In this document: positions 380 to 56,998 of the stretch, piece after piece
Numbering within the stretch: the stretch's first letter is position 1
Layout of the letters: every line of letters begins with the position of its first letter
Origin: an uncultured Gammaproteobacteria bacterium
GTDB lineage: Bacteria; Patescibacteriota; Microgenomatia; UBA8517
NCBI GenBank assembly: GCA_964599625.1
Contig: CAZRGC010000003.1
Span: forward strand, 97,759-161,758
DNA length: 64,000 nucleotides
Reading direction: 5' to 3'
Position numbers and translations under genes: made by a program
The notes under the pieces: model-generated
The model's input: the letters and a program-made list of their open reading frames with translations, nothing else
Databases searched by the model: none
Told to the model about the DNA's origin: nothing

Positions 380-1345
380 ATGGACAATACTCTATCTCAA
401 TTAATTGATTCGTCTTCATCTGTACTTATTATTTTGCCAACAAAACCGTACTTTGATCAGGTTGCTGCGGGGCTTTCGCTTTATTTATCTCTTAGGGATA
501 AGAAAGATGTGGCTATAACATGCCCAAGTCCAATGACAGTCGGATTTAATAGGCTCATAGGGGTTCAAAAGATTGTTTCTGAGGTTGGCAATAAGAATCT
601 AACAATTAGGTTTGCAGGATACGACGCCACAAACATTGAAAAGGTGAGTTATGATATCGAAAACGGTGAATTCAAACTAACTGTGGTTCCCAAGGTCGGT
701 TTCGATTCTCCTCAAAAGGAAAACTTGAACCTGAATTATTCAGGGATGTCTGCTGACCTTGTTATTTTGGTGGGTGGTGCCAACGAGACTCATTTTCCGG
801 TACTAACCTCACCTGATTTTAGTGTAGAAAAAATTGTTCATGTAGGCACAAGAGTTTTAACCACAACCCGTGAAGTCATGTCGCTTTCGAAACCGGGTTC
901 TTCTACCAGTGAAATTGTTGCCAACATAATTAAGACTAACGAGCTTGCAATGGACCCGGATATCGCAACCAATCTCATCATGGGTATAGAAGAGGGCAGC
1001 TCCCACTTTGAGAGTTCCGAAGTTCGTGCGGAAACCTTTGAGACTTTTGCTTTTCTTTTAAGAAATGGAGGAAGGAGAATGCCTAAAAACAAATTAAGTC
1101 CCATGAATTTTCCTCCAGGATCAATTCCCGGAGTACCCGTAGCCCAGCCAGGGATAAGGCTTCCAAAGATGCCACCGATGCCACCTTTGCAGACTCTACC
1201 TTCTTTTGATGAAGTTCTTGCTCCTGACATGGACTCAACCAAAGAGGAAGAATCTGAAATTGACCCCCCTGACGATTGGCTTCAGCCAAAAGTATTCAAA
1301 GGATCCGTTAACCAACCCGAGTCTTTTAGCGAGAACAAGGGTTAA
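380..1345 (+). CDS. DHH/DHHA1 (NrnA-like) fold protein with degenerate catalytic motifs and a Pro-rich C-terminal tail
   Basis: N-terminus (VLIILPTKPYFDQVAAGLSLYLSLRDKKDVAI) aligns to the NrnA N-terminus, but the HxxPDGDAxGS and DHH motifs are replaced (..DLVILVGGANETH..). The C-terminus is P-rich and low complexity. Confidence 0.4.
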   Translation: MDNTLSQLIDSSSSVLIILPTKPYFDQVAAGLSLYLSLRDKKDVAITCPSPMTVGFNRLIGVQKIVSEVGNKNLTIRFAGYDATNIEKVSYDIENGEFKLTVVPKVGFDSPQKENLNLNYSGMSADLVILVGGANETHFPVLTSPDFSVEKIVHVGTRVLTTTREVMSLSKPGSSTSEIVANIIKTNELAMDPDIATNLIMGIEEGSSHFESSEVRAETFETFAFLLRNGGRRMPKNKLSPMNFPPGSIPGVPVAQPGIRLPKMPPMPPLQTLPSFDEVLAPDMDSTKEEESEIDPPDDWLQPKVFKGSVNQPESFSENKG

Positions 1346-14878: not shown

Positions 14879-17107
14879 ATGAATTTAAAAGATTTTTTGT
14901 CCAACAAAGGAAAACCACCCGAACTCTATTGGTCGTTGGTATTGGAAGACGGTTGGGTTCAAGCCGGTATTTGGTATATAGATCAGTCTGTTGCGCAGGT
15001 TGTTGGAACAAGTCCCGCAGCAGCATGGGAAGTCAAAGAAGAATTGGTTGGAGCAACTGATTCAGCTTTGTCTTCGGCGATTCAAAGACTTCCGGAGGAT
15101 TACCCCGAACCCAACAAGACAGTGTTTGGCGTTCCTTCTTCATGGGTCAAAAACGGCGAGATCGACGAAGATCATTTGAGGTTGATTAAAAAAATTTGTT
15201 CAGAACTATCATTGATACCTGTGGGTTTTGTTGTGCTTCCTGAAGCAATTGCACATCTTTACAAGTCTGAAGAAGGGGCGCCTGTTAATGCGATAGTAAT
15301 GGGAATAGGGAGAGAGAATTTGGAAATTGCAGTGTTTTCTTTGGGTAATCTGTTGGGTACAACTCAGGTTGCCAGAAGTGTGTCTTTAATCGATGATGTT
15401 ACCGAGGGGCTATCCAGATTTGAAAGCTCTTCACCGCTCCCGTCTAGGTTTATTCTTTTTGACGGAAAAGGGGGAGAGTTGGAGGATGCTAAAGACCAAA
15501 TCCTAAAAAATCGTTGGGAAGAGAGTGAAAGAGTCAAATTTTTACACACACCAAAAGCTGAAATATTGCTCCCCGAAAGGAAAGTTTTGGCAACGTCTTT
15601 GGCGGGTGCAAACGAAATTGCAGATGTCTCAAAAGTTGAAACTCAAGACCAAAAAGAAGTTATCGAAGGTCCCTATACGGAGAACATCCCACCCGAAACA
15701 GCAAATGTCCAGGAAACAAACGAAGTTACACCTGAAGACCTTGGTTTTTCTTTGGATTCCGACGTGAGTTTGAACAAACAGGTTGAACCTGATGTTGTAA
15801 AAGCTTTTGAAAAACCGCCGGCTACTGAGCACGTGCAGCCCACGATTCACCGTCAATCTCCTGTTTTTGAACATAAGCCAAAAATTAACCTTAAAGAAAT
15901 GTTCAATAAAGTGAAAACAAAAGCATCGGCTTTGCTGAAAAGACTTTCGTTTTCGGCAAAAATCTCTTCTGCCAGACATGGAGTGATGAAGCCGGTGTAT
16001 CTGGTTGTTCTTGTGCTTGTTTTGGCAGGACTAGGGGCGCTTTGGTGGTTTGTACCCAAAGCGGAAGTAGTTGTATATGTTAGGCCTCAAATAGTTCAGG
16101 AAGAAACAGAAGTTGTATTTACAACTAGTGGCCAGGGTGACATAAATTCGGGGTTGGTTGCTGCCAAATCCGTGACCTCTAATGTTAGCGGCGAAAAGAC
16201 GAAGTCGGCAACTGGAAGCAAACTTGTCGGTGACAAAGCCAAGGGTACAGTACAAATTCAAAACGGCACAGCATTTCCAATCAATCTGACTGCCGGAACT
16301 TTTTTGGTGTCGTCGGGTAATTTAAAATTCGAACTTGATCAGGCAGCCTCAGTCTCTGCTGCGCTGTCCCCGACTTCGCCGGGAACGGCTAGCTTGTCTG
16401 TGACGGCGGGTTCGATAGGCGCGGAATACAATTTGGCAAAAAGTGAAGTATTCAAGGTAGGCAATTATCCCAAAGCCGAGGTTGATGCCACATCAATAAC
16501 CGACTTTGCAGGAGGAAGCTCCAGACAGATTTCAGCCGTAAGCAAAGTGGATATTGAAACATTGCAAACTTCACTTAAAGAGGAGCTAGTACAAAAAGCA
16601 AAGGAAGATTTATCGTCTAAGGTTTTAGACGGCCAAGTGTTGGTTTCTGATTTTGTTTCAAGCGATGTTGCATCCGAAACATTTGATCACAAACAGGGTG
16701 AAGAAGCCAACAACGTTAAGTTAAATATGGAGATTGCTGCCAATGCGCTTGTGGCCGACAAGAACAATTTATATGATTTTGCATCAAAAGTTCTGACTGA
16801 CAAAAAACCGGAGGGTTTTGTTTTAAGAAACGAACAAATAAAGTTCGAGTTTAGTTTTGTGGAACAAAAAGACGAGGGTTATGTTTACAAGGTAAAAATC
16901 AATGCAAATTTCCTACCTTCATTTTCTGAGAAGGACATAGTAGATAAAATTATTGGAAAGAACCGGGCAACCGCAAAAAATTATCTGTCGAGTATTCCTG
17001 GCTTCGTAAGGGTGGAACTGAAAATCAATCCGCCTTATCCGTTTATATTTAACAGCCTTCCAAGAGTTAGAAAAAACATTGATATTACAGTTGAGGCAGA
17101 CAGGTAG
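14879..17107 (+). CDS. FtsA/PilM-like actin-fold domain fused to a TM segment and a large extracytoplasmic domain (function unknown)
   Basis: N-terminal ~230 aa show the actin-like ATPase pattern (..LIKKICSELSLIPVGFVVLPEAIAHLY...AIVMGIGRENLEIAVFSLGN..). TM at ~aa 370-392 (VYLVVLVLVLAGLGALWWFV). ~350-aa C-terminal domain with no motifs. Confidence 0.5.
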   Translation: MNLKDFLSNKGKPPELYWSLVLEDGWVQAGIWYIDQSVAQVVGTSPAAAWEVKEELVGATDSALSSAIQRLPEDYPEPNKTVFGVPSSWVKNGEIDEDHLRLIKKICSELSLIPVGFVVLPEAIAHLYKSEEGAPVNAIVMGIGRENLEIAVFSLGNLLGTTQVARSVSLIDDVTEGLSRFESSSPLPSRFILFDGKGGELEDAKDQILKNRWEESERVKFLHTPKAEILLPERKVLATSLAGANEIADVSKVETQDQKEVIEGPYTENIPPETANVQETNEVTPEDLGFSLDSDVSLNKQVEPDVVKAFEKPPATEHVQPTIHRQSPVFEHKPKINLKEMFNKVKTKASALLKRLSFSAKISSARHGVMKPVYLVVLVLVLAGLGALWWFVPKAEVVVYVRPQIVQEETEVVFTTSGQGDINSGLVAAKSVTSNVSGEKTKSATGSKLVGDKAKGTVQIQNGTAFPINLTAGTFLVSSGNLKFELDQAASVSAALSPTSPGTASLSVTAGSIGAEYNLAKSEVFKVGNYPKAEVDATSITDFAGGSSRQISAVSKVDIETLQTSLKEELVQKAKEDLSSKVLDGQVLVSDFVSSDVASETFDHKQGEEANNVKLNMEIAANALVADKNNLYDFASKVLTDKKPEGFVLRNEQIKFEFSFVEQKDEGYVYKVKINANFLPSFSEKDIVDKIIGKNRATAKNYLSSIPGFVRVELKINPPYPFIFNSLPRVRKNIDITVEADR

Positions 17108-33866: not shown

Positions 33867-35015
33867 ATGATTCTTGGACTGAAATTAACTGTCGAAAACG
33901 ACGATATTGTCGACATTGGCGGAGATTTGTACGTCAAAAACTCCAAAGCCATGAAGCGTCTTCACAGGGAGCTTCGCTACCTGGGATACCAAATCGACAA
34001 CTTGCGGCACGATAAATACCGCTTGGACAAGGGAGCCACCCCGCGCGAAATGGAAAAAGGTGGTTGGTCGCTTTGGTTTGCCAAGTTACCCAATATCAGA
34101 CGTGGTGTCTGTGGAAGCTGTGGAGCAACCATTTCCACTCTCGGCATTCAGTCACACGGCCACAAATGCGAGAGGTGCGGCGAAGTGACCTACTGGGAAA
34201 TGGTGGAAGGATCAGTAATCCGGTTCGTCTTTTTGCAAAAAGAGGGCCGTGGAATGTGGGATCCCGAGCTTAAGATGAAAGTGCACCATTGGGATACGCG
34301 TGAAGGGCTTTTATATCTTTACCCGGAAGCCTTGGAAGGTGGCCTTTCGACTGTGACGGGAGATACAGCACGGCAGTACTTGGGCAATAACCACGAAAAG
34401 TGGAATGTAGTCACGATCGATGGCCAAAAAATTATCGTGATCAAGTACCCCAAGCAGTGGCGGCGCGATACGGCTGTTATCGAACCTTATGAGATTTACG
34501 GTCATCAGTGGAATCACAAGATCGTCAAAATCTACAAAGGTAAACATTACAGTGACTGGGACCGGCTCCCTGTTCCCGAGACATTTTCTATCTACGAAAC
34601 CTGGCACTGGGACAAGCTTGTGGCTTCGCCAACATTGCACAGGCGTGTATTGCAGGCTGTTCACAACACCGATGACAAGGGTTGGCACTACCAAGACGGT
34701 CGTCCCTGGTTTAGAGAAGGAAGCTGGAAGGGCATGGCAAAGTTTATTCGCCATTTTACAGCCCTTGATGCTGATGCCTTTGACCGAGCCTGGCCACGTT
34801 TCAGAAACGACGGTCCCGGCGGGATCGACGACTTGGCACACTTCTGTCACCCCAAAGCCATCACTCGTGATGAGCCAAACATAGGTAATGTTCTTGTTGC
34901 CATGGGGAAACGCATGGAAAATAAGTCTCTCACGCGCGATGAGATCGAAGCAGCCAAACGCGGCTTGAGCGATCCATTGACGGGTGATTTTTTACGTTCC
35001 CTGCGTAAGCGTTAG
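33867..35015 (+). CDS. Island ORF2, hypothetical Trp/His-rich protein with a Cys4 zinc ribbon (382 aa)
   Basis: CGSCG...HKCERCG cluster. Many W/H/Y residues. Higher local GC by eye. No family motif recognised. Confidence 0.55.
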   Translation: MILGLKLTVENDDIVDIGGDLYVKNSKAMKRLHRELRYLGYQIDNLRHDKYRLDKGATPREMEKGGWSLWFAKLPNIRRGVCGSCGATISTLGIQSHGHKCERCGEVTYWEMVEGSVIRFVFLQKEGRGMWDPELKMKVHHWDTREGLLYLYPEALEGGLSTVTGDTARQYLGNNHEKWNVVTIDGQKIIVIKYPKQWRRDTAVIEPYEIYGHQWNHKIVKIYKGKHYSDWDRLPVPETFSIYETWHWDKLVASPTLHRRVLQAVHNTDDKGWHYQDGRPWFREGSWKGMAKFIRHFTALDADAFDRAWPRFRNDGPGGIDDLAHFCHPKAITRDEPNIGNVLVAMGKRMENKSLTRDEIEAAKRGLSDPLTGDFLRSLRKR

Positions 35016-44201: not shown

Positions 44202-44708
44202 ATGGCAAATTTTAACCGAACATATGCCGACCAGGCACCAAAAGAATATGAGGAGACAGTTGTTCAAATAAACAGGATCTCCAAAAAGACAAAAGGTGGA
44301 AACACAATGAGATTTTCTGCACTTATTGTGGTGGGCAACAGAAAAGGAAGAGTTGGGGTTGGTATGGCCAAGGCACACGACGTTAGAAACGCAATCCGAA
44401 AATCAATCGAGGCAGCCAAAAGAAATTTGGTGGACGTTCCTCTTACTGGAACAACCATCCCTTACTCAGTAAGCGAAAAGTATTCTGCAGCTAAAATTCT
44501 TTTGAAACCAGCACCCCCCGGATCCGGAATTATTGCAGGCGGACCAATGAGAGTTGTTTTGGAAGCGGCAGGAATCAGAGATGCAGTCGGAAAAATTTTG
44601 GGAACAAAGAATAAAATTTCTAATGTTTATGCGACACTCAAGGCGCTGGAGCAAGTATCACGCCTTGTTGTTATGAAGAAAAATGAGCCAAAAGCAGAAA
44701 CTAAATAA
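44202..44708 (+). CDS. rpsE: 30S ribosomal protein S5
   Basis: S5 dsRBD and C-terminal domain (..VVGNRKGRVGVGMAKA..). Confidence 0.95.
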   Translation: MANFNRTYADQAPKEYEETVVQINRISKKTKGGNTMRFSALIVVGNRKGRVGVGMAKAHDVRNAIRKSIEAAKRNLVDVPLTGTTIPYSVSEKYSAAKILLKPAPPGSGIIAGGPMRVVLEAAGIRDAVGKILGTKNKISNVYATLKALEQVSRLVVMKKNEPKAETK

Positions 44709-44710
44709 CT

Positions 44711-45118
44711 ATGAGCAAATTACCAAAAGTTGTAACAAAGTCAAAAAAGAGAATCGGTAGAGGTTTTGGAACCGGTAAAGGTGGACACACCACAAACCGC
44801 GGACAGAAGGGGCAAAAATCCCGTGGTTCCATTGGAGTTCTTTTCGAAGGAATGAAAGTCAAGAAGTCACTTCTTAAAAGACTTCCATTGCAGCGCGGAA
44901 AAGGAAAGTTCAAAGCCAACGGAAAACCGGTTATTGTTACCCTTACCGACCTGGATATTCTCCCAACCGGTAGTGAAATTACTTTAGATCTTTTGATCAA
45001 AGAGAACTTGGTCGACCCTATTTTAGGCCGAAAATTCGGAGTAAAAGTCTTGGGAGGAGGAAAATCTACCAAGAAATTTACTTTCAAAGTCCCAACTTCC
45101 AAATCTGTAGCCAAATAA
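44711..45118 (+). CDS. rplO: 50S ribosomal protein L15 (no rpmD/L30 between rpsE and rplO)
   Basis: ..GRGFGTGKGGHTTNRGQKGQKSR signature. rpsE is followed directly by rplO. Confidence 0.93.
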   Translation: MSKLPKVVTKSKKRIGRGFGTGKGGHTTNRGQKGQKSRGSIGVLFEGMKVKKSLLKRLPLQRGKGKFKANGKPVIVTLTDLDILPTGSEITLDLLIKENLVDPILGRKFGVKVLGGGKSTKKFTFKVPTSKSVAK

Positions 45119-45122
45119 ATAT

Positions 45123-45599
45123 ATGACAGAAAGTCCAACACCTGTTGGAGAAGAAGCAGAAAAACTACAAAAAACATCACTTTTAGTGATGTATTCACGC
45201 CAAGATATGGCAGATACAGCCCTTGAGGTAATAAAAGAACTTAGGGAAGCAGGTCTTAATGTCATCGATATAAACGATAAGATTGCAGATGGCTCGTGGG
45301 TGGGTGAGTCGGATAAAATATTGGAAAATACCCCAGCAGTTCTTGTTATTCCATCAAAATCCATAAAAGAAGATGGTTTGGTTAAGGACGCAGTTTACCG
45401 TGCCGACATGCTAAGGGTAGAAAAAAGAAAGAGAATCGTTCCAATATTTTTTCAGGCTAATGCAAATGTTTCGATAGGAGGCCTTGGCAGCCTTGCCGGA
45501 ATAAATTGGGACGGTGAGACAGAAGGGATTCAAAATTTTGATAAGACTGCAGCTTTCGGCCACCTCAAAACTTTTGTCGCCCAAAATACTAATTCATAA
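45123..45599 (+). CDS. TIR-like (TIR_2 / DUF1863-type) domain protein
   Basis: LLVMYSRQDMADTALEVIKELREAGLNVIDINDKIADGSWVGESDKILENTPAVLVIPSKSIKEDGLVKDAVYRADMLRVEKRKRIVPIFF follows the bacterial TIR pattern (xISYSxxD..AxxLxxxLxxAGxxVxxDxDIxxGxxW...AIxxSxxxLxxxSxxSxxSxW..E...A...KRIIPV). Confidence 0.55.
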   Translation: MTESPTPVGEEAEKLQKTSLLVMYSRQDMADTALEVIKELREAGLNVIDINDKIADGSWVGESDKILENTPAVLVIPSKSIKEDGLVKDAVYRADMLRVEKRKRIVPIFFQANANVSIGGLGSLAGINWDGETEGIQNFDKTAAFGHLKTFVAQNTNS

Positions 45600-45601
45600 A
45601 C

Positions 45602-46030
45602 ATGGAAACAATTAAACCTAACGGGTTTTTGACAAGCTTCGAGTTTGAGGGATTAAAACTTCCTGTGGAATACGTGAGAACAGATCAAGTTTGTGAGGGT
45701 GTAACTTGCGACGTTTACAAATTTTGGGGAGACAAAAAGAAGGACTTGGCGATAATAACAATACAACCTGACGCCAAAACACCACCCCAAAAAGTTTTGT
45801 CGGGAGAAAAAACAATCGAAGGATATATTTCGGGATCGGGTGTATTTACAGTGAAAAAGGACGACGGGGGTGAAGAAAGAATATTGGTAGAAGATAAGCC
45901 CACAGAGTACTTTTCAATTCAAGTAAACGTAGGGGACACAATGCAATGGAAAGCTTCGGAAGATTCTATTCTTACTGTTTTTGAAGTTTGCTACCCCCCA
46001 TACGAAGACGGCAGGTTTCAAAATCTTTAG
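45602..46030 (+). CDS. Cupin-like small beta-barrel protein (hypothetical)
   Basis: 142 aa. Alternating beta-strand pattern with a Gly-rich turn typical of cupin_2 folds. No metal-binding His motif identified. Confidence 0.35.
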   Translation: METIKPNGFLTSFEFEGLKLPVEYVRTDQVCEGVTCDVYKFWGDKKKDLAIITIQPDAKTPPQKVLSGEKTIEGYISGSGVFTVKKDDGGEERILVEDKPTEYFSIQVNVGDTMQWKASEDSILTVFEVCYPPYEDGRFQNL

Positions 46031-46045
46031 TGTTATACTTCCAAT

Positions 46046-46489
46046 ATGTCCCGCGATAGATTCAGACTTCTTGCAGCGTGTTACTTATTGCCAATAAAGG
46101 GGAAGAAAGTTCTTTTGTCCCGCCGTTTTAACACTGGCTGGAAGGATGGTTGGTATTCCTTGATTGCAGGGCATTTGGATGGCAACGAATCTGTAAGCGA
46201 CTCAATGATTCGTGAAGCGAAAGAGGAGTCTGGTATTGAAATTGCCAAAAAAGACTTGGTTCCTTTAACCTCCGTTCACCACAAAACAGAAGACTCAGAA
46301 TATGTGGACTTTTTCTTCGCAGTAAAAAAGTGGAAAGGTGAACCGCAAATCAAGGAGCCCAACAAGTGTGACGATATGTCCTGGTTTCCAATAGACAAAC
46401 TTCCGGAAAAATTACTTCCACACGTTAAGCAAATAATTCAAAACCTGGACTCCAATGTTCCTTTTTTTGAACACGGATGGAACAAATAA
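46046..46489 (+). CDS. NUDIX hydrolase
   Basis: Nudix box GHLDGNESVSDSMIREAKEESGIEI (Gx5Ex7REUxEExGU). Confidence 0.8.
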   Translation: MSRDRFRLLAACYLLPIKGKKVLLSRRFNTGWKDGWYSLIAGHLDGNESVSDSMIREAKEESGIEIAKKDLVPLTSVHHKTEDSEYVDFFFAVKKWKGEPQIKEPNKCDDMSWFPIDKLPEKLLPHVKQIIQNLDSNVPFFEHGWNK

Positions 46490-46504
46490 CTGCTAAACTA
46501 TTTT

Positions 46505-47476
46505 GTGGCTCAAAAAGAAGACGACTCCTACCAAAAATATCTTGAAGACAAACACTTGGCATTTGCAACGCCCGAAAGTCTGGTATCGTCTATGGTAAAA
46601 AAGGCAACGGGATCAGAACCCTTTTCTGTCGAAAAGTTGATTCAGGGTGAAGTGAACGAGGTTTATGATGTGGAGGCTGGTGGTCAAAATGTAATAGTAA
46701 GAATTTCCCGACAAGGACCGGAAAATTTTGAAACCGAAGAAACTGTAATACGCCTCGCTTTGCAAGCAGGTGTACCCGCTCCCAAAGTTCTTCTTTTGGA
46801 ATCTGCCTCAACCGAAACCGAAGAATTGACCTTTTGTATAGAAGAAAAGATTGAAGGAAAGCCATTGAAAGAATTACTAAAAACTCTGGACGCAGAAACT
46901 CTCAAGGCAATTCTGATTCAGTCGGGCGAGATATTATCCCGTATCCATTCATTGGAAACGGACAGATTTGGGCCCTTGGATAGGCAGGTCTTTTATCCTT
47001 CATGGACAGAATATTTATTCAGGAAGGAAGAAAATAAACGTGAGATAATTGAGTATGGCTCTAAAGTGGGACTCCTGCCCGGTGTTATAGATAAAGCCTT
47101 TTCTATACAAAGGAAAAACTCAGGAATTTTGGAAATACAAATCCCCTATATTCTGCACGGCGATTTTAGTCCCAAACACATTCTCACGAATGGAAAAACA
47201 GTCACTGGAATAATAGATTTTGAAGACGCCAAAGGAGGCGATCCGGTGAGAGATATTGCTTGGATGAACTTTTTTTATGGCGATTCGGTAAATCTTGAGT
47301 GGTTTTTAGAAGGATACGGAAGGGAAAAAACAGGAATGGACTTTGATATAAAAATGAGACTTTTGAAAGTTAACTTGGGACTGGACCTGTTGGATTATTA
47401 CGGATCAGAAGGTAATATTTCAGGACTTAAATACTCGAAACGTAAATTGGAGGAAGAGATGGAATTTTTCAAATGA
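46505..47476 (+). CDS. Phosphotransferase enzyme family (APH/choline-kinase-like) protein
   Basis: Brenner motif LHGDFSPKHIL (HGDxxxxN) and IIDFEDA (D-F/x-E metal-binding loop). N-terminal nucleotide-binding lobe. Confidence 0.7.
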   Translation: MAQKEDDSYQKYLEDKHLAFATPESLVSSMVKKATGSEPFSVEKLIQGEVNEVYDVEAGGQNVIVRISRQGPENFETEETVIRLALQAGVPAPKVLLLESASTETEELTFCIEEKIEGKPLKELLKTLDAETLKAILIQSGEILSRIHSLETDRFGPLDRQVFYPSWTEYLFRKEENKREIIEYGSKVGLLPGVIDKAFSIQRKNSGILEIQIPYILHGDFSPKHILTNGKTVTGIIDFEDAKGGDPVRDIAWMNFFYGDSVNLEWFLEGYGREKTGMDFDIKMRLLKVNLGLDLLDYYGSEGNISGLKYSKRKLEEEMEFFK

Positions 47477-47483
47477 CCCGACA

Positions 47484-48065
47484 ATGAATTCAAACACAAT
47501 AGTAATTTTGGGAACCCTGATTGGTGCAATTGGCTCGATCTTTTATCTTGTCGACGTTGTTAAGGGAAAAATAAAACCCAATCGGGTTTCTTTTATTCTT
47601 TGGTCACTCCCACCATTGATATCTGCATACGCAAATATTAAAAGTGGCGGTGGAATTGAATCTTTAATGACTTTTAGTGTTGGTTTTTTTCCACTGCTTA
47701 TATTTTTGGCAACTTTTCTCAACAAAAAATCCGTTTGGAAACTTACCAAATTTGATTTTGTTTGCGGCGCACTTTCACTTTTGGGATTCCTGCTTTGGCA
47801 GGTAACAAAAGAAGGATATTTGGCAATAACTTTTAGTATAGTTTCCGATTTTTTGGCTGGAATTCCCACCATAACAAAAACTTACAAACACCCAGAAACG
47901 GAACTGGCTTGGCCCTGGTTGATGCCGGTCTTGGGAGAAATTCTTACACTTTCCACACTTGGGGATATTACTTATCTCAACTCAGGTTTCATGATTTACG
48001 TAACTTTGTATAACACAGTCATTTTTCTTTTGGCGCAGTATAAAATCGGAAAGATATGGAAATAA
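47484..48065 (+). CDS. Hypothetical integral membrane protein (about 6 TM)
   Basis: 193 aa with alternating hydrophobic helices. No family motif recognised (PnuC-like was considered, not supported). Confidence 0.45.
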   Translation: MNSNTIVILGTLIGAIGSIFYLVDVVKGKIKPNRVSFILWSLPPLISAYANIKSGGGIESLMTFSVGFFPLLIFLATFLNKKSVWKLTKFDFVCGALSLLGFLLWQVTKEGYLAITFSIVSDFLAGIPTITKTYKHPETELAWPWLMPVLGEILTLSTLGDITYLNSGFMIYVTLYNTVIFLLAQYKIGKIWK

Positions 48066-48562
48066 TTAAACTACCTGTTTCAGAGTGGAAAAGTTATAAA
48101 GCAATAAGGCTTCGAGCTCTCAAGGAAGACCCTCAGGCATTTGGAGCCTCATACGACGATGCGGTCAAATTTGACGAGTCCGAATGGAGACGCAGGCTTG
48201 AAAATGCCGAAAATTCGGACAGAAGTTGGTTATGGTTTGCACAAGAAAACCAGAAAATTGTAGGCCTTATTGGGGCATATATGGAAAAAGGTGCAACAAA
48301 TGAGGCAACTATAGTTTCTGTTTTTGTTCCCAAGGAAGAAAGAGGGAAAGGAATATCGAGCCTTTTGATGGATAAGATGATATCCGAACTTTCAGCTAAA
48401 CCATATCTCAAAAAAATTAATTTGACTGTGAACAAAGACCAAGTAGCGGCCGTAAATCTTTATACAAAGTTTGGTTTCGTAAAAGTCGGTGAGCAAAATT
48501 TTAAAATGGGAAACGGTCAGAAGGCTGTGGAATTTGTTATGGAAAGACAAATTAGCACTTAA
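48056..48562 (+). CDS. GNAT family N-acetyltransferase
   Basis: Motif A region (..RGKGISSLLMDKMISEL..) and C-terminal ..NLYTKFGF.. typical of GNAT. Confidence 0.75.
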   Translation: MEIIKLPVSEWKSYKAIRLRALKEDPQAFGASYDDAVKFDESEWRRRLENAENSDRSWLWFAQENQKIVGLIGAYMEKGATNEATIVSVFVPKEERGKGISSLLMDKMISELSAKPYLKKINLTVNKDQVAAVNLYTKFGFVKVGEQNFKMGNGQKAVEFVMERQIST

Positions 48563-48606
48563 GGTCTGTCATTGATAACTTAGTTGCGATATAATTCAAC
48601 TTCGGT

Positions 48607-49890
48607 ATGTTTGAACAAATTTTGAATTTCTTCAAGAAAGCTGTAACCACACCTTCTATTAGGAAGAAGCTTCTGGTTACCGCGGTTATCCTTGTTGTAT
48701 TTCGTTTGGCAGGACATATCCCGGCCGCAGGAATAGATCGCAATACACTCACCGCACTCTTTTTGGGAAGCCCTCTTCTTTCGCTTTTGGATGTGTTTTC
48801 CGGAGGAACTCTTGCAAACTTTTCTATTTTGGCCTTAGGGCTTAACCCTTACATCAATGCATCCATTATTTTGCAGCTTTTGGGTTATGTAGTTCCATCG
48901 TTGGAAGCCTTGCAAAAAGAGGGTGAGTACGGCCAGGAGAAAATAAATCAGTACACAAGGCTTTTGACAGTGCCTCTTGCGGCTCTCCAGGCGTTTGGTA
49001 TGTACGCACTCCTTAAGGGGCAAAATGTAATTTCCAATCTTGCTCCTTTGGAACTTTTGGCTTTGGTGATTACGATGACAGCCGGAACTGTTTTCTCGGT
49101 TTGGTTGGGAGAGCTGATTAGCGAGTATGGATTTAAAAATGGAGTTTCCCTGCTAATTTTTACAGGAATAGTAGCAAGACTTCCTGTTGTTTTGGGACAG
49201 TCGGCCAGTGTTGTACAGTCGCAGGATATTCTGAAAGTAATTCTCTTCCTGGTTGTAGCAGCTTTGGTTGTGGGAATGATTATTTTCATAAGTGAAGCTT
49301 CCCGCAAAATCCCAATACACTATGCAAAAAGACGCACCGACACAGGTTTGGGGGCAACTTCCTATTTACCACTAAGACTCAATCAAGCAGGTGTGATTCC
49401 TATCATATTCGCGGTTTCATTGGTTTTGATACCTTCGCTTATGGGTCAGTTTTTGGCCAACATTCCAAATGCTGCTGTTGCGAATGCTGCCAGATTCATA
49501 AGTACTGCATTTAATCCCCAGTCTGTTGTCTATAACCTTACATATTTTGTTTTAGTGTTTGGTTTCACTTATTTTTATACAGCGGTTATTTTCAATCCGG
49601 ATAAAATTTCCGAAGATTTACAAAAAGGTGGAGGTTTTATTCCGGGAATCAGACCCGGAAAAGAAACATCCAAATATTTGTCTTTCGTTTTGTCTCGTTT
49701 GACAGTGGTTGGAGGAGTGTTTTTGGGTTTGGTTGCTGTCATGCCTTCTTTCTTTCAAAATTCGATTGGTGCCAGTAATTTAGCAATTGGAGGAACTGGG
49801 GTGTTGATTGTTGTTTCTGTGGCTTTGGAAATTGTCAGAGAAATGGAAGGTGAGTTGGTAATGGGTAAGTATGAAGGTTTTCTAAGATGA
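48607..49890 (+). CDS. secY: Preprotein translocase subunit SecY
   Basis: 10-TM SecY topology, ..[15 protein letters not shown].., ..[13 protein letters not shown].. motifs. Confidence 0.95.
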
Positions 49891-55954: not shown

Positions 55955-56998
55955 ATGTCAGAACCACTTTATGATCCGACGGTTTTGGAAAAATATGAAG
56001 TGCCGGAAGCTTTCCGTTATTCGTTGGACGAAGAAGAGGTGACCAACGAAGAAATTTCGGCTGTCAGGCGTTTGGTAAGGGAAAATAAAATAGAGCAAAA
56101 AGGAGCATTTGCAGCAGGTATTAAATACGCGAGGCAAGAGATAATAGCGCTGGAGAATGATCTGGGTCTGGTTCAGAAAGATGAAAGGTCGATGCAAGTA
56201 GCTGTCTTACCCGACGCAGTATTTGAAAAGGCATACTTTGATCTTACCCGTCAAGAAGCCGGAGACAGTGGTGGCGGTTATGCAAACGCACTGGGAAGTG
56301 TTGTATTAAGAGCAAGTACCGACCCTGCATATATAAAATCTTCAATGGTTTACCACGAGTTTGTACATAAGTTTATAGATAAGCATATACAGGTTTTTTC
56401 CAAGGTAAGACGCCCAAGTGGCAGAATTGCCCATGATTATGTAGATAGAAGATCGGGTCTATCGGTGGAAAATGTAACCAAAGAAAGCTCGGCAAAAGGG
56501 ACAAAACCCCGCGGCGAACTTTTGAATGAGCTGGGAAACTACATGGAACAGCATAGGTTTATTTTAAATATATTGGATAAGCCCGAATTTGCTGAAGAAA
56601 AACAGAGGCGCGAGAAACTTCTCAGATCGATGGGTTTTGGAGAATCGGGAGGGTTTTGGATAGCAAATGTCAAAAAGCAGGATGGGAGTACATTGCAGAT
56701 AAACCTTGATAGAGACAGTATTCATATTGACGAAAACGGGGATTTTAATCCCGCAACCCTGTTTTTTTATATGCAACTTGCAACGGATTTGGGAAAGGCA
56801 TGTGACCCACAAAACGATGGGGCGGCTTTCAGGAAGCTTCTTTTGGATTGTAAAGTTGATCCCTCAAAACAAAACGAACTCAGAAAGATGGTGGATATGG
56901 GAATGGGAGAGGGTTTTTACACCAGATTAAAGTCGGCGGGTTACCAATCGGACGATGAACTTTTAGACCTCATTGTAGAGGTGCAATCCAAACTATAG
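55955..56998 (+). CDS. Hypothetical protein with an HExxH motif (possible zinc metallopeptidase-like)
   Basis: ..SSMVYHEFVHKFID.. contains HEFVH. No other protease motifs verified. Confidence 0.4.
   Translation: MSEPLYDPTVLEKYEVPEAFRYSLDEEEVTNEEISAVRRLVRENKIEQKGAFAAGIKYARQEIIALENDLGLVQKDERSMQVAVLPDAVFEKAYFDLTRQEAGDSGGGYANALGSVVLRASTDPAYIKSSMVYHEFVHKFIDKHIQVFSKVRRPSGRIAHDYVDRRSGLSVENVTKESSAKGTKPRGELLNELGNYMEQHRFILNILDKPEFAEEKQRREKLLRSMGFGESGGFWIANVKKQDGSTLQINLDRDSIHIDENGDFNPATLFFYMQLATDLGKACDPQNDGAAFRKLLLDCKVDPSKQNELRKMVDMGMGEGFYTRLKSAGYQSDDELLDLIVEVQSKL

What the first reader, a model, noticed from the sequence alone, without database searches (positions are those of the whole stretch)
45123..45599. 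Standalone 158-aa TIR-like domain protein placed directly after rplO
The sequence follows the bacterial TIR pattern closely: (L)LVMYSRQD start, AGLNV..D..I..G..W, a block of small/Ser residues, KRIVPIFF. It has no partner domain such as SIR2, STING or a sensor. The 4-nt gap to rplO implies constitutive high expression with ribosomal proteins, which would be dangerous for an unregulated NADase. It may instead be a 2-deoxyribosyltransferase-like or nucleotide-binding (SLOG-type) variant, or it may be regulated post-translationally.
Basis: inference. Interest (0 to 1): 0.6.

Follow-up and report, generated by a model that had tools for sequence, protein, structure and literature searches.

The report
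Glutamate-less, hypervariable TIR protein in ribosomal operon
A small TIR-fold protein really is encoded right after ribosomal gene rplO, but it lacks the glutamate that TIR enzymes need to destroy NAD+, and its gene is a sharply bounded, allele-swapping hot spot inside an accessory-gene island that a small group of ultra-small (CPR) bacteria carry in their ribosomal operon.

Summary

The "dangerous NADase" reading is weakened. In both possible alignment registers the catalytic Glu of TIR NADases falls on alanine (A90 or A94), and the Trp of WxxxE is also missing.

New findings:
- The gene is the first of six accessory genes (TIR-like, cupin, NUDIX, hygromycin-kinase-like APH, membrane protein, GNAT) between rplO and secY.
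- In most relatives fished out by rplO, the two genes are adjacent. In the nearest clade the junction holds varied cargo.
- The family is very rare: 47 hits among 1.84 billion representatives. Its nearest relatives carry an N-terminal zinc ribbon.
- Between contigs whose upstream ribosomal genes are 100% identical in DNA, the TIR gene differs at pS 0.79 and pN 0.28. The breakpoints lie at about codon 10 and at the stop codon. Within one allele class dN/dS is 0.05.

Most likely it is a non-catalytic, polymorphic TIR scaffold or recognition module. Its function is untested.

The parts
44711..45118 (+). rplO (ribosomal protein L15, 135 aa). It is the upstream conserved flank of the variable gene. 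rpmD (L30) is absent between rpsE and rplO.
   Evidence: ORF list. Pfam Ribosomal_L27A 24.4 bits. 99-100% protein identity among window, L007 and L004.
45119..45122 (+). 4-nt spacer (ATAT) between the rplO stop and the TIR-like start. No SD, promoter-like or terminator-like site.
   Evidence: Sequence. Scan. Upstream-region comparison.
45123..45599 (+). The 158-aa TIR-fold ORF of the finding.
45123..45152 (+). Conserved 5' 'handle' encoding MTESPTPVGE. It stays nearly invariant while the rest of the gene diverges. It contains the palindrome TCCAAC-ACCT-GTTGGA (45134-45149). The peptide corresponds to the T-E-x-G linker that follows the zinc ribbon in the distant relatives.
   Evidence: DNA alignment A2. 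Protein alignments A1 and A3. In L001, three of the nine codons after the ATG carry a synonymous change, so the constraint is mainly on the peptide. The hairpin fold is not better than shuffles, z -0.61.
45153..45599 (+). Hypervariable body of the gene. DNA identity is 50-75% between contigs whose flanks are 95-100% identical. Variation is concentrated in alphaA and the BB-loop/alphaB segment.
   Evidence: Sliding-window identity. pN/pS tables. Per-element conservation. 3' boundary alignment A4.
45390..45404 (+). Codons A90 (gca, 45390-45392) to A94 (gcc, 45402-45404). These are the two candidate positions for the catalytic Glu of TIR NADases, and both are alanine.
   Evidence: hhalign register. 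PDB 7uxr WTEYE register. SARM1 KDWVHKE register. Sequence.
45602..46030 (+). 142-aa cupin-fold protein with no Pfam hit. Its family is found only in CPR/Patescibacteria and often lies near a NUDIX gene.
   Evidence: AF2 pLDDT 87.5. Foldseek cupin hits at about E 1e-5. Homologues and source names. Contexts.
46046..46489 (+). NUDIX hydrolase, 147 aa, MutT/NUDT1-like. It is replaced by a HAD hydrolase in L001 and accompanied by one in L070.
   Evidence: Pfam NUDIX 65.9 bits. PDB hits. Loci.
46505..47476 (+). APH-family kinase, 323 aa. Its closest solved relatives are hygromycin B 4-O-kinase and APH(2'')-Id.
   Evidence: Pfam APH 81.7 bits. PDB E 4e-14.
47484..48065 (+). 193-aa hydrophobic (predicted membrane) protein of unknown family. 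A relative lies directly after rplO in L017.
   Evidence: No Pfam, NCBIfam or PDB hit. L017.
48056..48562 (+). GNAT acetyltransferase, 168 aa. Its best NCBIfam similarity is to RimI, below threshold. It overlaps the previous gene by 10 nt.
   Evidence: Pfam Acetyltransf_1 62.8 bits. NCBIfam.
48607..49890 (+). secY, the downstream conserved end of the island. A promoter-like site lies at 48566-48595.

Best explanation
The ORF encodes a small cytoplasmic protein with a genuine TIR fold. It belongs to a very rare family restricted to CPR/Patescibacteria-like bacteria. The family has lost the catalytic glutamate and the Trp of the WxxxE motif that TIR enzymes use to cleave NAD+.

It is therefore most likely not an NAD+-depleting enzyme. 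That removes the paradox of making it constitutively with ribosomal proteins.

It is the first gene of a six-gene accessory cassette (TIR-like, cupin, NUDIX or HAD, aminoglycoside-kinase-like APH, membrane protein, GNAT). The cassette is inserted between rplO and secY, a junction that serves as a hot spot for variable cargo in this clade, and it is probably transcribed as part of the spc operon.

The gene behaves as a discrete, exchangeable allele. Anciently diverged allele classes, each under purifying selection, are swapped between otherwise near-identical genomes by recombination, apparently homologous, through two conserved handles: the end of rplO plus the first 10 or so codons, and the start of the cupin gene.

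My proposed mechanism (inferred, not shown) is that the protein works as a non-catalytic TIR scaffold or recognition module, as animal adaptor TIRs do. It would bind a partner through the alphaA and BB-loop/alphaB segments. Those are the parts that differ most between alleles. The polymorphism would be maintained by balancing or diversifying selection, as expected for a protein engaged in conflict with a phage, a host or a competitor.

Shown: the fold, the missing Glu, the genomic anatomy, the rarity of the family, the allele pattern and the purifying selection.
Inferred: co-transcription, absence of enzymatic activity, the scaffold role and the conflict context.
For: - Missing catalytic residues. 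The catalytic E of the canonical TIR_2 set aligns to A90. The WTEYE motif of PDB 7uxr aligns to L86...A90. SARM1 KDWVHKE aligns to KDAVYRA, which gives A94. A94 is invariant in the orthologues. Across the zinc-ribbon relatives these positions hold A, S, V, T, C or I, never Glu or Asp. Mutating the Glu abolishes the NAD+-dependent activities assayed for AbTir, TcpO, BdTIR and ThsB (PMC10022894).
- Cassette conservation. The same gene order occurs in every orthologous locus.
- Hot spot. rplO and secY are adjacent in most relatives fished out with rplO. The nearest clade carries varied cargo there: NADAR, DUF3800, glyoxalase, NTP_transf_6, GrpB, SET, alpha/beta hydrolase, NUDIX and a zinc-ribbon TIR.
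- Allele pattern. L007 against L004: rpsH to rpsE pS = 0, TIR pS 0.79 and pN 0.28, other cassette genes pS 0.10-0.25. Identity falls from 95-100% to 50-75% only across about 45132-45600.
- Incongruence. The L004 TIR is 84% identical to L070 and 55% to L007, while its rplO is 100% identical to L007 and 83% to L070.
- Purifying selection. dN/dS is 0.05 within an allele class.
- Distribution of variation. 11-14% of positions are invariant in alphaA and BB/alphaB, against 75-100% in betaC and betaE.
- Alleles recur in independent assemblies.
- Composition matches the flanks.
Against: - No experiment or structure shows that the protein is inactive. D89 is invariant in the five orthologues and sits next to A90, and E100 is nearly invariant family-wide. 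A non-canonical active site cannot be excluded.
- The alphaC helix is four residues longer than in canonical TIRs, so the register is ambiguous. It was not settled by 3-D superposition, because the tools return no model coordinates.
- The AF2 model is of moderate confidence (pLDDT 76.9, from four sequences).
- The conflict or recognition role rests only on the population-genetic signature and the fold. No defence-system model matches (PADLOC best E 0.017). The neighbours look like house-cleaning or drug-modifying enzymes, not immune effectors.
- Only five alleles are known, all from metagenome assemblies. Strain-level mis-joins at conserved flanks could exaggerate how identical the backgrounds are.
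- Synonymous sites are saturated between allele classes, so positive selection cannot be tested.
Confidence: 0.55

Rival explanations
1. It is an active TIR NADase or signal-producing immune protein. It would be kept silent until triggered, for example by phage-induced oligomerisation as in standalone TIR defence proteins, and would use a non-canonical acidic residue such as D89.
Against: The Glu position is Ala in both registers, and the WxxxE Trp is missing. D89 is not conserved in the zinc-ribbon relatives, which have T or A there. No PADLOC defence model matches. There is no effector or sensor partner. The position in the operon suggests constitutive expression.
Confidence: 0.13
2. It is a nucleotide-processing house-cleaning enzyme of the wider TIR/SLOG/deoxyribosyltransferase-like group. 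It would work with the neighbouring NUDIX, HAD and cupin enzymes on a nucleotide or nucleoside substrate.
Against: TIR domains outrank those folds by 3-5 Z units. There is no Pfam hit to NDT or LOG families at E <= 1. The cupin-NUDIX pair occurs without the TIR gene, so there is no obligate linkage. House-cleaning enzymes are not expected to show swapped, anciently diverged alleles.
Confidence: 0.1
3. It is a lineage-specific protein associated with the ribosome or the translation apparatus, made stoichiometrically with ribosomal proteins. The zinc ribbon of its relatives would be reminiscent of small zinc-binding ribosomal proteins.
For: It is placed 4 nt after rplO inside the spc operon, with a start region like those of the ribosomal genes. 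In L013 a zinc-ribbon relative also follows rplO. The zinc-ribbon part has a weak similarity to eS27, E 0.058, not significant.
Against: Other zinc-ribbon relatives lie outside ribosomal operons. Close relatives of the organism lack the gene at this site. Hypervariability and allele swapping are the opposite of what ribosomal components show.
Confidence: 0.1
4. It is a decaying or functionless remnant, diverging quickly simply because constraint is relaxed.
For: It is the fastest-evolving gene of the region. The L013 relative has an in-frame stop codon. The catalytic residue is lost.
Against: The ORF is intact in all five alleles, with 61 invariant positions among the first four. dN/dS is 0.05 within a class and about 0.2 between classes. 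Saturated synonymous divergence next to identical flanks, together with incongruent allele relationships, indicates allele exchange rather than fast decay.
Confidence: 0.05

Closest known systems
Bacterial TIR NADases (AbTir and PDB 7uxr TIR domains, Thoeris ThsB, SpbK)
   Same: Same fold and the same Pfam family (TIR_2). Small, cytoplasmic, sometimes standalone. Shares the betaA xSYSxxD-type motif and the betaD 'iPi' motif.
   Different: The catalytic Glu and the WxxxE Trp are replaced (A90/A94, L86). There is no ThsA, STING, SAVED or Argonaute partner. No PADLOC model matches. The gene sits inside a ribosomal operon rather than a defence island.
Animal adaptor TIR domains (TRIF, TRAM, MyD88, MAL/TIRAP)
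   Different: Sequence identity is only 9-14%, and there is no evidence of common descent closer than the superfamily. No receptor or death-domain partners exist here. Oligomerisation of the CPR protein is untested.
SARM1 TIR domain
   Same: It is the best-scoring TIR in the sequence-profile search of solved structures (E about 0.1), with a readable KDW.H.E / KDA.Y.A alignment. It is also among the Foldseek top hits.
   Different: SARM1 E642 corresponds to Ala in this register. The SARM1 TIR is part of an ARM-SAM-TIR protein.
Variable-cargo hot spots between conserved core genes (genomic or defence islands)
   Same: Two conserved core genes, rplO and secY, bracket cargo that differs between close relatives. 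One gene within the cargo shows swapped, deeply diverged alleles.
   Different: The hot spot lies inside an essential, tightly packed operon. In this lineage the cargo runs in the same direction with 2-16 nt spacers. No integrase, flanking repeats or compositional anomaly were found. The cargo consists mostly of small-molecule or nucleotide-modifying enzymes.

Membership tests
TIR domain superfamily (Pfam TIR_2, PF13676) | Score at or above the curated gathering threshold | tested here: met
   36.9 bits against 28, E 6e-9. The other four alleles score 29.4-38 bits. The zinc-ribbon relatives fall below threshold at 13.8-22.7 bits, and two of the seven show no TIR_2 match at E <= 1.
TIR domain superfamily (Pfam TIR_2, PF13676) | TIR three-dimensional fold (flavodoxin-like alternating strands and helices), with solved TIR domains as the best structural neighbours | tested here: met
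NAD+-cleaving TIR enzymes (SARM1, AbTir, ThsB, plant TIRs) | Catalytic glutamate in alphaC (WxxxE in many bacterial TIRs) | tested here: not met
   The Glu aligns to A90 or A94. The Trp aligns to L86 or A90. The same holds across the family alignment. Requirement of the Glu: PMC10022894.
NAD+-cleaving TIR enzymes (SARM1, AbTir, ThsB, plant TIRs) | NAD+ hydrolase or cyclase activity | not testable with these tools
   Needs a biochemical assay.
Known TIR-containing anti-phage systems (Thoeris, CBASS TIR-STING/TIR-SAVED, SPARTA, and others) | Match to a system-specific protein model and presence of the partner gene or domain | tested here: not met
   PADLOC best hit is SAVED_TIR at E 0.017, 12.2 bits. 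The neighbours are cupin, NUDIX, APH, a membrane protein and GNAT. No SIR2, SLOG, STING, SAVED or Argonaute is present.
Nucleoside 2-deoxyribosyltransferase / DNPH1 / LOG (SLOG) enzymes | Sequence-family match, and best structural similarity to these folds | tested here: not met
CheY-like receiver / flavodoxin | Best structural or sequence match to receiver or flavodoxin domains | tested here: not met

The most novel reading that the evidence does not exclude
A catalytically dead TIR domain acts in bacteria as an allele-specific recognition or adaptor (or decoy) protein. It is hard-wired into the ribosomal spc operon so that it is always present. It is kept polymorphic by balancing selection in a conflict between CPR episymbionts and their phages, hosts or competitors. 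This would be a bacterial counterpart of scaffold-type TIR signalling (MyD88/TRIF-like), and an immune-type polymorphic locus inside an essential operon.
Probability: 0.2. Interest if true: 0.75.

Novelty: new variant of a known kind. Interest (0 to 1): 0.5.

Why it matters
Bacterial TIR domains are currently understood almost entirely as NAD+-cleaving immune enzymes. Here is a conserved bacterial TIR family under purifying selection that has lost the catalytic Glu, yet shows the allele dynamics typical of recognition or immunity genes. It would be a natural test case for non-enzymatic TIR function outside animals.

The rplO-secY junction of this CPR clade also shows that an essential ribosomal operon can host a variable accessory-gene island. 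That island includes drug-kinase-like and acetyltransferase genes. This bears on how genome-reduced symbionts obtain constitutive expression of accessory functions.

If the protein turns out to be inactive and merely structural, the finding is a modest curiosity. If it binds phage or host factors in an allele-specific way, it opens a new class of TIR biology.

Tried and rejected
- Sequence search of solved structures with the single protein found nothing useful. Profiles were needed.
- PHROGs and PADLOC gave no meaningful hit.
- Rfam found no RNA family anywhere in the window.
- The palindrome at the start of the gene (45134-45149) does not fold better than shuffled sequence, z -0.61. Synonymous sites vary in L001. 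I therefore rejected an RNA-element explanation for the conserved 5' end in favour of peptide-level constraint plus its role as a recombination flank.
- No repeats flank the gene that could indicate site-specific recombination.
- There is no paralogue or silent copy in the window that could feed gene conversion.
- A diversity-generating retroelement was considered and rejected. The whole gene is diverged, including saturated synonymous sites, rather than a short adenine-targeted region.
- Foreign origin by composition was rejected. GC is about 0.40, like the flanks.
- An obligate TIR-cupin module was rejected. The cupin occurs after rplO, or elsewhere, without the TIR gene.
- The search for a conserved partner of the zinc-ribbon relatives was inconclusive. 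Contigs were short, or the neighbours were unrelated.
- The search for related loci with the broad alignment failed for lack of a conserved stretch.
- Literature searches found no precedent for a TIR gene in a CPR ribosomal operon, for zinc-ribbon-TIR fusions of this type, or for Glu-less bacterial TIR families.

Full report
**1. The observation**

ORF 45123-45599 (+) exists. It encodes 158 aa and begins 4 nt after the TAA of rplO (44711-45118).

The similarity to TIR domains is statistically solid:
- Pfam TIR_2 scores 36.9 bits against a gathering score of 28 (E 6e-9, residues 22-131).
- A family profile aligns to a set of canonical TIR_2 proteins with 96.9% probability, E 2e-10.
- An AlphaFold2 model (pLDDT 76.9, pTM 0.77) finds only TIR domains at the top of a Foldseek search of the PDB.

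The protein has no second domain, and no other Pfam, NCBIfam, PADLOC or PHROG family matches it.

**2. The catalytic residue**

Three independent alignments address this.
- hhalign against canonical TIR_2 proteins, whose Glu is invariant (alignment A5), places that Glu on A90.
- The family profile against a solved bacterial TIR domain (PDB 7uxr, E 1.1e-3) aligns its W-T-E-Y-E motif to L86-V-K-D-A90.
- The orthologue profile against the SARM1 TIR (E about 0.1) aligns KDWVHKE(642) to K88-D-A-V-Y-R-A94.

The two registers differ by one helical turn, because alphaC is four residues longer here. In both registers the Glu position is alanine and the Trp position is Leu or Ala. A94 is invariant in the orthologues. 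Across the more distant relatives these positions hold A, S, V, T, C or I, never Glu or Asp.

The nearby D89 is invariant only in the five orthologues. E100 is nearly invariant, but it aligns with a non-catalytic Glu at the C-terminal end of alphaC. By the topology of the fold, that end lies away from the active-site side (inference).

Substituting the Glu abolishes the NAD+-dependent activities assayed for AbTir, TcpO, BdTIR and ThsB (PMC10022894). I therefore consider canonical NADase activity unlikely. No assay was possible, and 3-D superposition could not be done because model coordinates are not returned.

**3. Surroundings in the window**

The gene is the first of six tightly packed, co-directional genes between rplO and secY:
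- TIR-like protein.
- A 142-aa protein with no Pfam hit that models confidently as a cupin (pLDDT 87.5; Foldseek cupin hits).
- A MutT/NUDT1-like NUDIX hydrolase.
- An APH-family kinase whose closest solved relatives are hygromycin B 4-O-kinase (E 4e-14) and APH(2'')-Id.
- A 193-aa hydrophobic protein of unknown family.
- A GNAT acetyltransferase.

Spacers are 2-16 nt, or the genes overlap. A 44-nt gap containing a promoter-like site precedes secY.

No terminator-like or promoter-like site separates rplO from the TIR gene. The genome largely lacks Shine-Dalgarno sequences, and the A/T-rich region before the TIR start resembles those of the ribosomal genes. GC content is the same as in the flanks. 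Co-transcription with the spc operon is thus plausible but inferred.

The operon lacks rpmD (L30). The cupin family carries only Saccharibacteria and Patescibacteria names. Both point to a CPR bacterium. The title "uncultured Gammaproteobacteria" on a related MAG is probably a mislabel.

**4. Distribution**

The word-indexed search of 5.8 billion proteins found only three relatives besides the protein itself (74%, 54% and 51% identity). A fifth allele turned up through its neighbour (L070).

All of them lie in the same place: rplO, TIR, cupin, NUDIX and/or HAD, APH, membrane protein, GNAT, secY.

An exhaustive HMMER search of 1.84 billion representatives gave only 47 hits at E <= 1e-3 and 3 at E <= 1e-10. 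The nearest non-orthologues (203-216 aa) have the same Glu-less TIR-like domain preceded by a CxxC...CxxC zinc ribbon. The N-terminal MTESPTPVG of the window protein corresponds to their T-E-x-G linker.

One zinc-ribbon relative also sits directly after rplO, in L013, but with an in-frame TAA. Others are in unrelated contexts.

**5. The rplO-secY junction is a hot spot**

I fished 57 metagenomic loci with the L15 protein. In most of the contigs that reach far enough, rplO is followed directly by secY.

In the nearest clade (L15 59-70% identical) the junction holds different cargo in each lineage:
- zinc-ribbon TIR (L013);
- cupin, NADAR, DUF3800 (L014);
- glyoxalase/bleomycin-resistance-like protein (L015);
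- NTP_transf_6 (L016);
- a relative of the membrane protein (L017);
- alpha/beta hydrolase and GrpB (L019);
- SET, GNAT, GrpB, NUDIX (L020);
- NUDIX alone (L021);
- cupin, NUDIX, TPR, GrpB, CYTH, DHH (L071).

The cupin and NUDIX recur together without the TIR gene, including outside the ribosomal operon. The TIR gene is therefore an independent addition, not part of an obligate module.

**6. The gene is a discrete, exchangeable, hypervariable allele**

This is the most unexpected result.

Protein identity between the window and L007, L004 and L001:

| Genes | L007 / L004 | L001 |
|---|---|---|
| Ribosomal proteins | 98-100% | 83-95% |
| Other cassette proteins | 89-96% | 70-81% |
| TIR protein | 73% / 54% | 50% |

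L007 against L004:

| Gene(s) | pS | pN |
|---|---|---|
| rpsH, rplF, rplR, rpsE | 0 (identical DNA) | 0 |
| Other cassette genes | 0.10-0.21 | 0.013-0.025 |
| TIR gene | 0.79 | 0.28 |

A 60-nt sliding window shows identity dropping from 95-100% to 50-75% only between about 45132 and 45600. It recovers at the first codons of the cupin gene. The first 10 or so codons remain conserved.

Relationships are incongruent. The L004 TIR is 84% identical to that of L070 and 64% to that of L001, but only 55% to that of L007. Yet its L15 is 100% identical to L007 and 83% to L070.

Within that allele class (L004 against L070) dN/dS is 0.05, similar to the neighbours. Each class is therefore under purifying selection, and the protein is functional.

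The pattern is that of anciently diverged allele classes swapped by recombination, apparently homologous, through conserved flanks. Simple fast evolution does not explain it. A DGR does not explain it either, because the whole gene is diverged and its synonymous sites are saturated. No flanking repeats or silent copies were found.

Variation is concentrated in alphaA (11% invariant) and the BB-loop/alphaB segment (14%). BetaC (75%), betaE with the AGINWDG motif (100%) and the N-terminal peptide (78%) are conserved.

Each of three alleles (P0002, P0003, P0004) was recovered from at least two independent assemblies. Strain-level mis-joins in metagenome assemblies remain a caveat for the exact degree of flank identity.

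**7. Interpretation**

Best supported: a Glu-less, probably non-catalytic TIR-fold protein, made together with the translation apparatus. I propose that it works through protein-protein contacts, as adaptor TIRs do. Its polymorphic alphaA/BB segments suggest a recognition, adaptor or decoy role in some biological conflict. Only the fold, the missing residues, the genomic anatomy and the allele dynamics are shown. The rest is inference.

Rivals:
- a triggered NADase using a non-canonical acid (about 0.13);
- a nucleotide house-cleaning enzyme working with NUDIX, HAD and the cupin (about 0.10);
- a lineage-specific ribosome-associated protein (about 0.10);
- a decaying remnant (about 0.05, largely refuted by dN/dS).

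**8. Comparison with known families, and novelty**

It is a member of the TIR superfamily (threshold and fold both met). It fails the defining feature of the NADase TIRs, and it matches no known TIR defence system.

I found no literature precedent for a TIR gene in a CPR ribosomal operon, for this zinc-ribbon-TIR architecture, or for a Glu-less bacterial TIR family with such allele dynamics. I rate it a new variant of a known kind.

Interest is moderate (0.5). The allele-swapping behaviour and the operon-embedded island are surprising and directly testable.

Noticed in passing
window 45119-48606; loci L013-L023, L071: In this CPR clade the rplO-secY junction of the spc operon is a hot spot for variable accessory genes. 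Cargo seen includes NADAR, DUF3800, a glyoxalase/bleomycin-resistance-like protein, NTP_transf_6, GrpB, SET, alpha/beta hydrolase, CYTH, DHH, NUDIX, HAD, APH and GNAT. In most relatives fished out with rplO the two genes are adjacent.
   Followed up: partly
window 46505-47476 and 48056-48562: An APH-family kinase, closest to hygromycin B 4-O-kinase (E 4e-14) and APH(2'')-Id, and a GNAT sit inside the ribosomal operon. The GNAT's best NCBIfam similarity is to RimI, below threshold. Together they could be ribosome-antibiotic-modifying enzymes co-expressed with ribosomal proteins.
   Followed up: partly
window 46046-46489; L001 8923-9522; L070 4777-5841: The NUDIX gene is replaced by a HAD hydrolase in L001. 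Both are present in L070. The cassette itself is therefore modular.
   Followed up: no
window 46379-46489 and 47446-47560: Two further short blocks have low DNA identity (61-72%) between the window and L007/L004, while L007 and L004 stay 81-97% identical there. The blocks lie at the 3' end of NUDIX and at the APH-end/membrane-gene-start junction. This suggests additional recombination mosaicism in the cassette, unrelated to TIR allele class.
   Followed up: no
L013 979-1623: The zinc-ribbon TIR-like gene directly after rplO is interrupted by an in-frame TAA (..DLKQ*GIGVID..). This is a pseudogene, a sequencing error or read-through. P0006 is its C-terminal fragment.
   Followed up: partly
window 45134-45149: A perfect 6+4+6 palindrome, TCCAAC-ACCT-GTTGGA, encodes SPTPVG at the conserved 5' boundary of the hypervariable region. 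The CCAAC/GTTGG arms are kept in the four loci aligned. The predicted hairpin is not more stable than shuffled controls.
   Followed up: yes
window 44708-44711; L012 record title: There is no rpmD (L30) between rpsE and rplO, and S14 is the short 61-aa form. Both are consistent with CPR/Patescibacteria. The related MAG contig CAZRJH010000002.1 is titled 'uncultured Gammaproteobacteria bacterium', which is probably a taxonomic mislabel.
   Followed up: partly
window 380-1345, 14879-17107, 33867-35015, 55955-56998: Four sizeable + strand ORFs (321, 742, 382 and 347 aa) have no Pfam hit at E <= 1e-5. They sit in an otherwise standard core-gene region that also encodes PNPase, Lon-like AAA, RNase J, FtsK, AlaRS and YceG.
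   Followed up: no
zinc-ribbon relatives P0005, P0011, P0012, P0022, P0031, P0046, P0102 (residues ~20-55): The N-terminal CxxC...CxxC zinc ribbon of the distant relatives matches no Pfam zinc-ribbon family above noise. It gives a weak, non-significant hit to ribosomal protein eS27 (E 0.058).
   Followed up: no
window 48513-48528 and 48566-48595: A terminator-like hairpin lies near the end of the GNAT gene and a promoter-like site (CTGTCA-18-TATAAT) just before secY. This might give secY its own promoter downstream of the island. Neither class of site is enriched over shuffled sequence.
   Followed up: no
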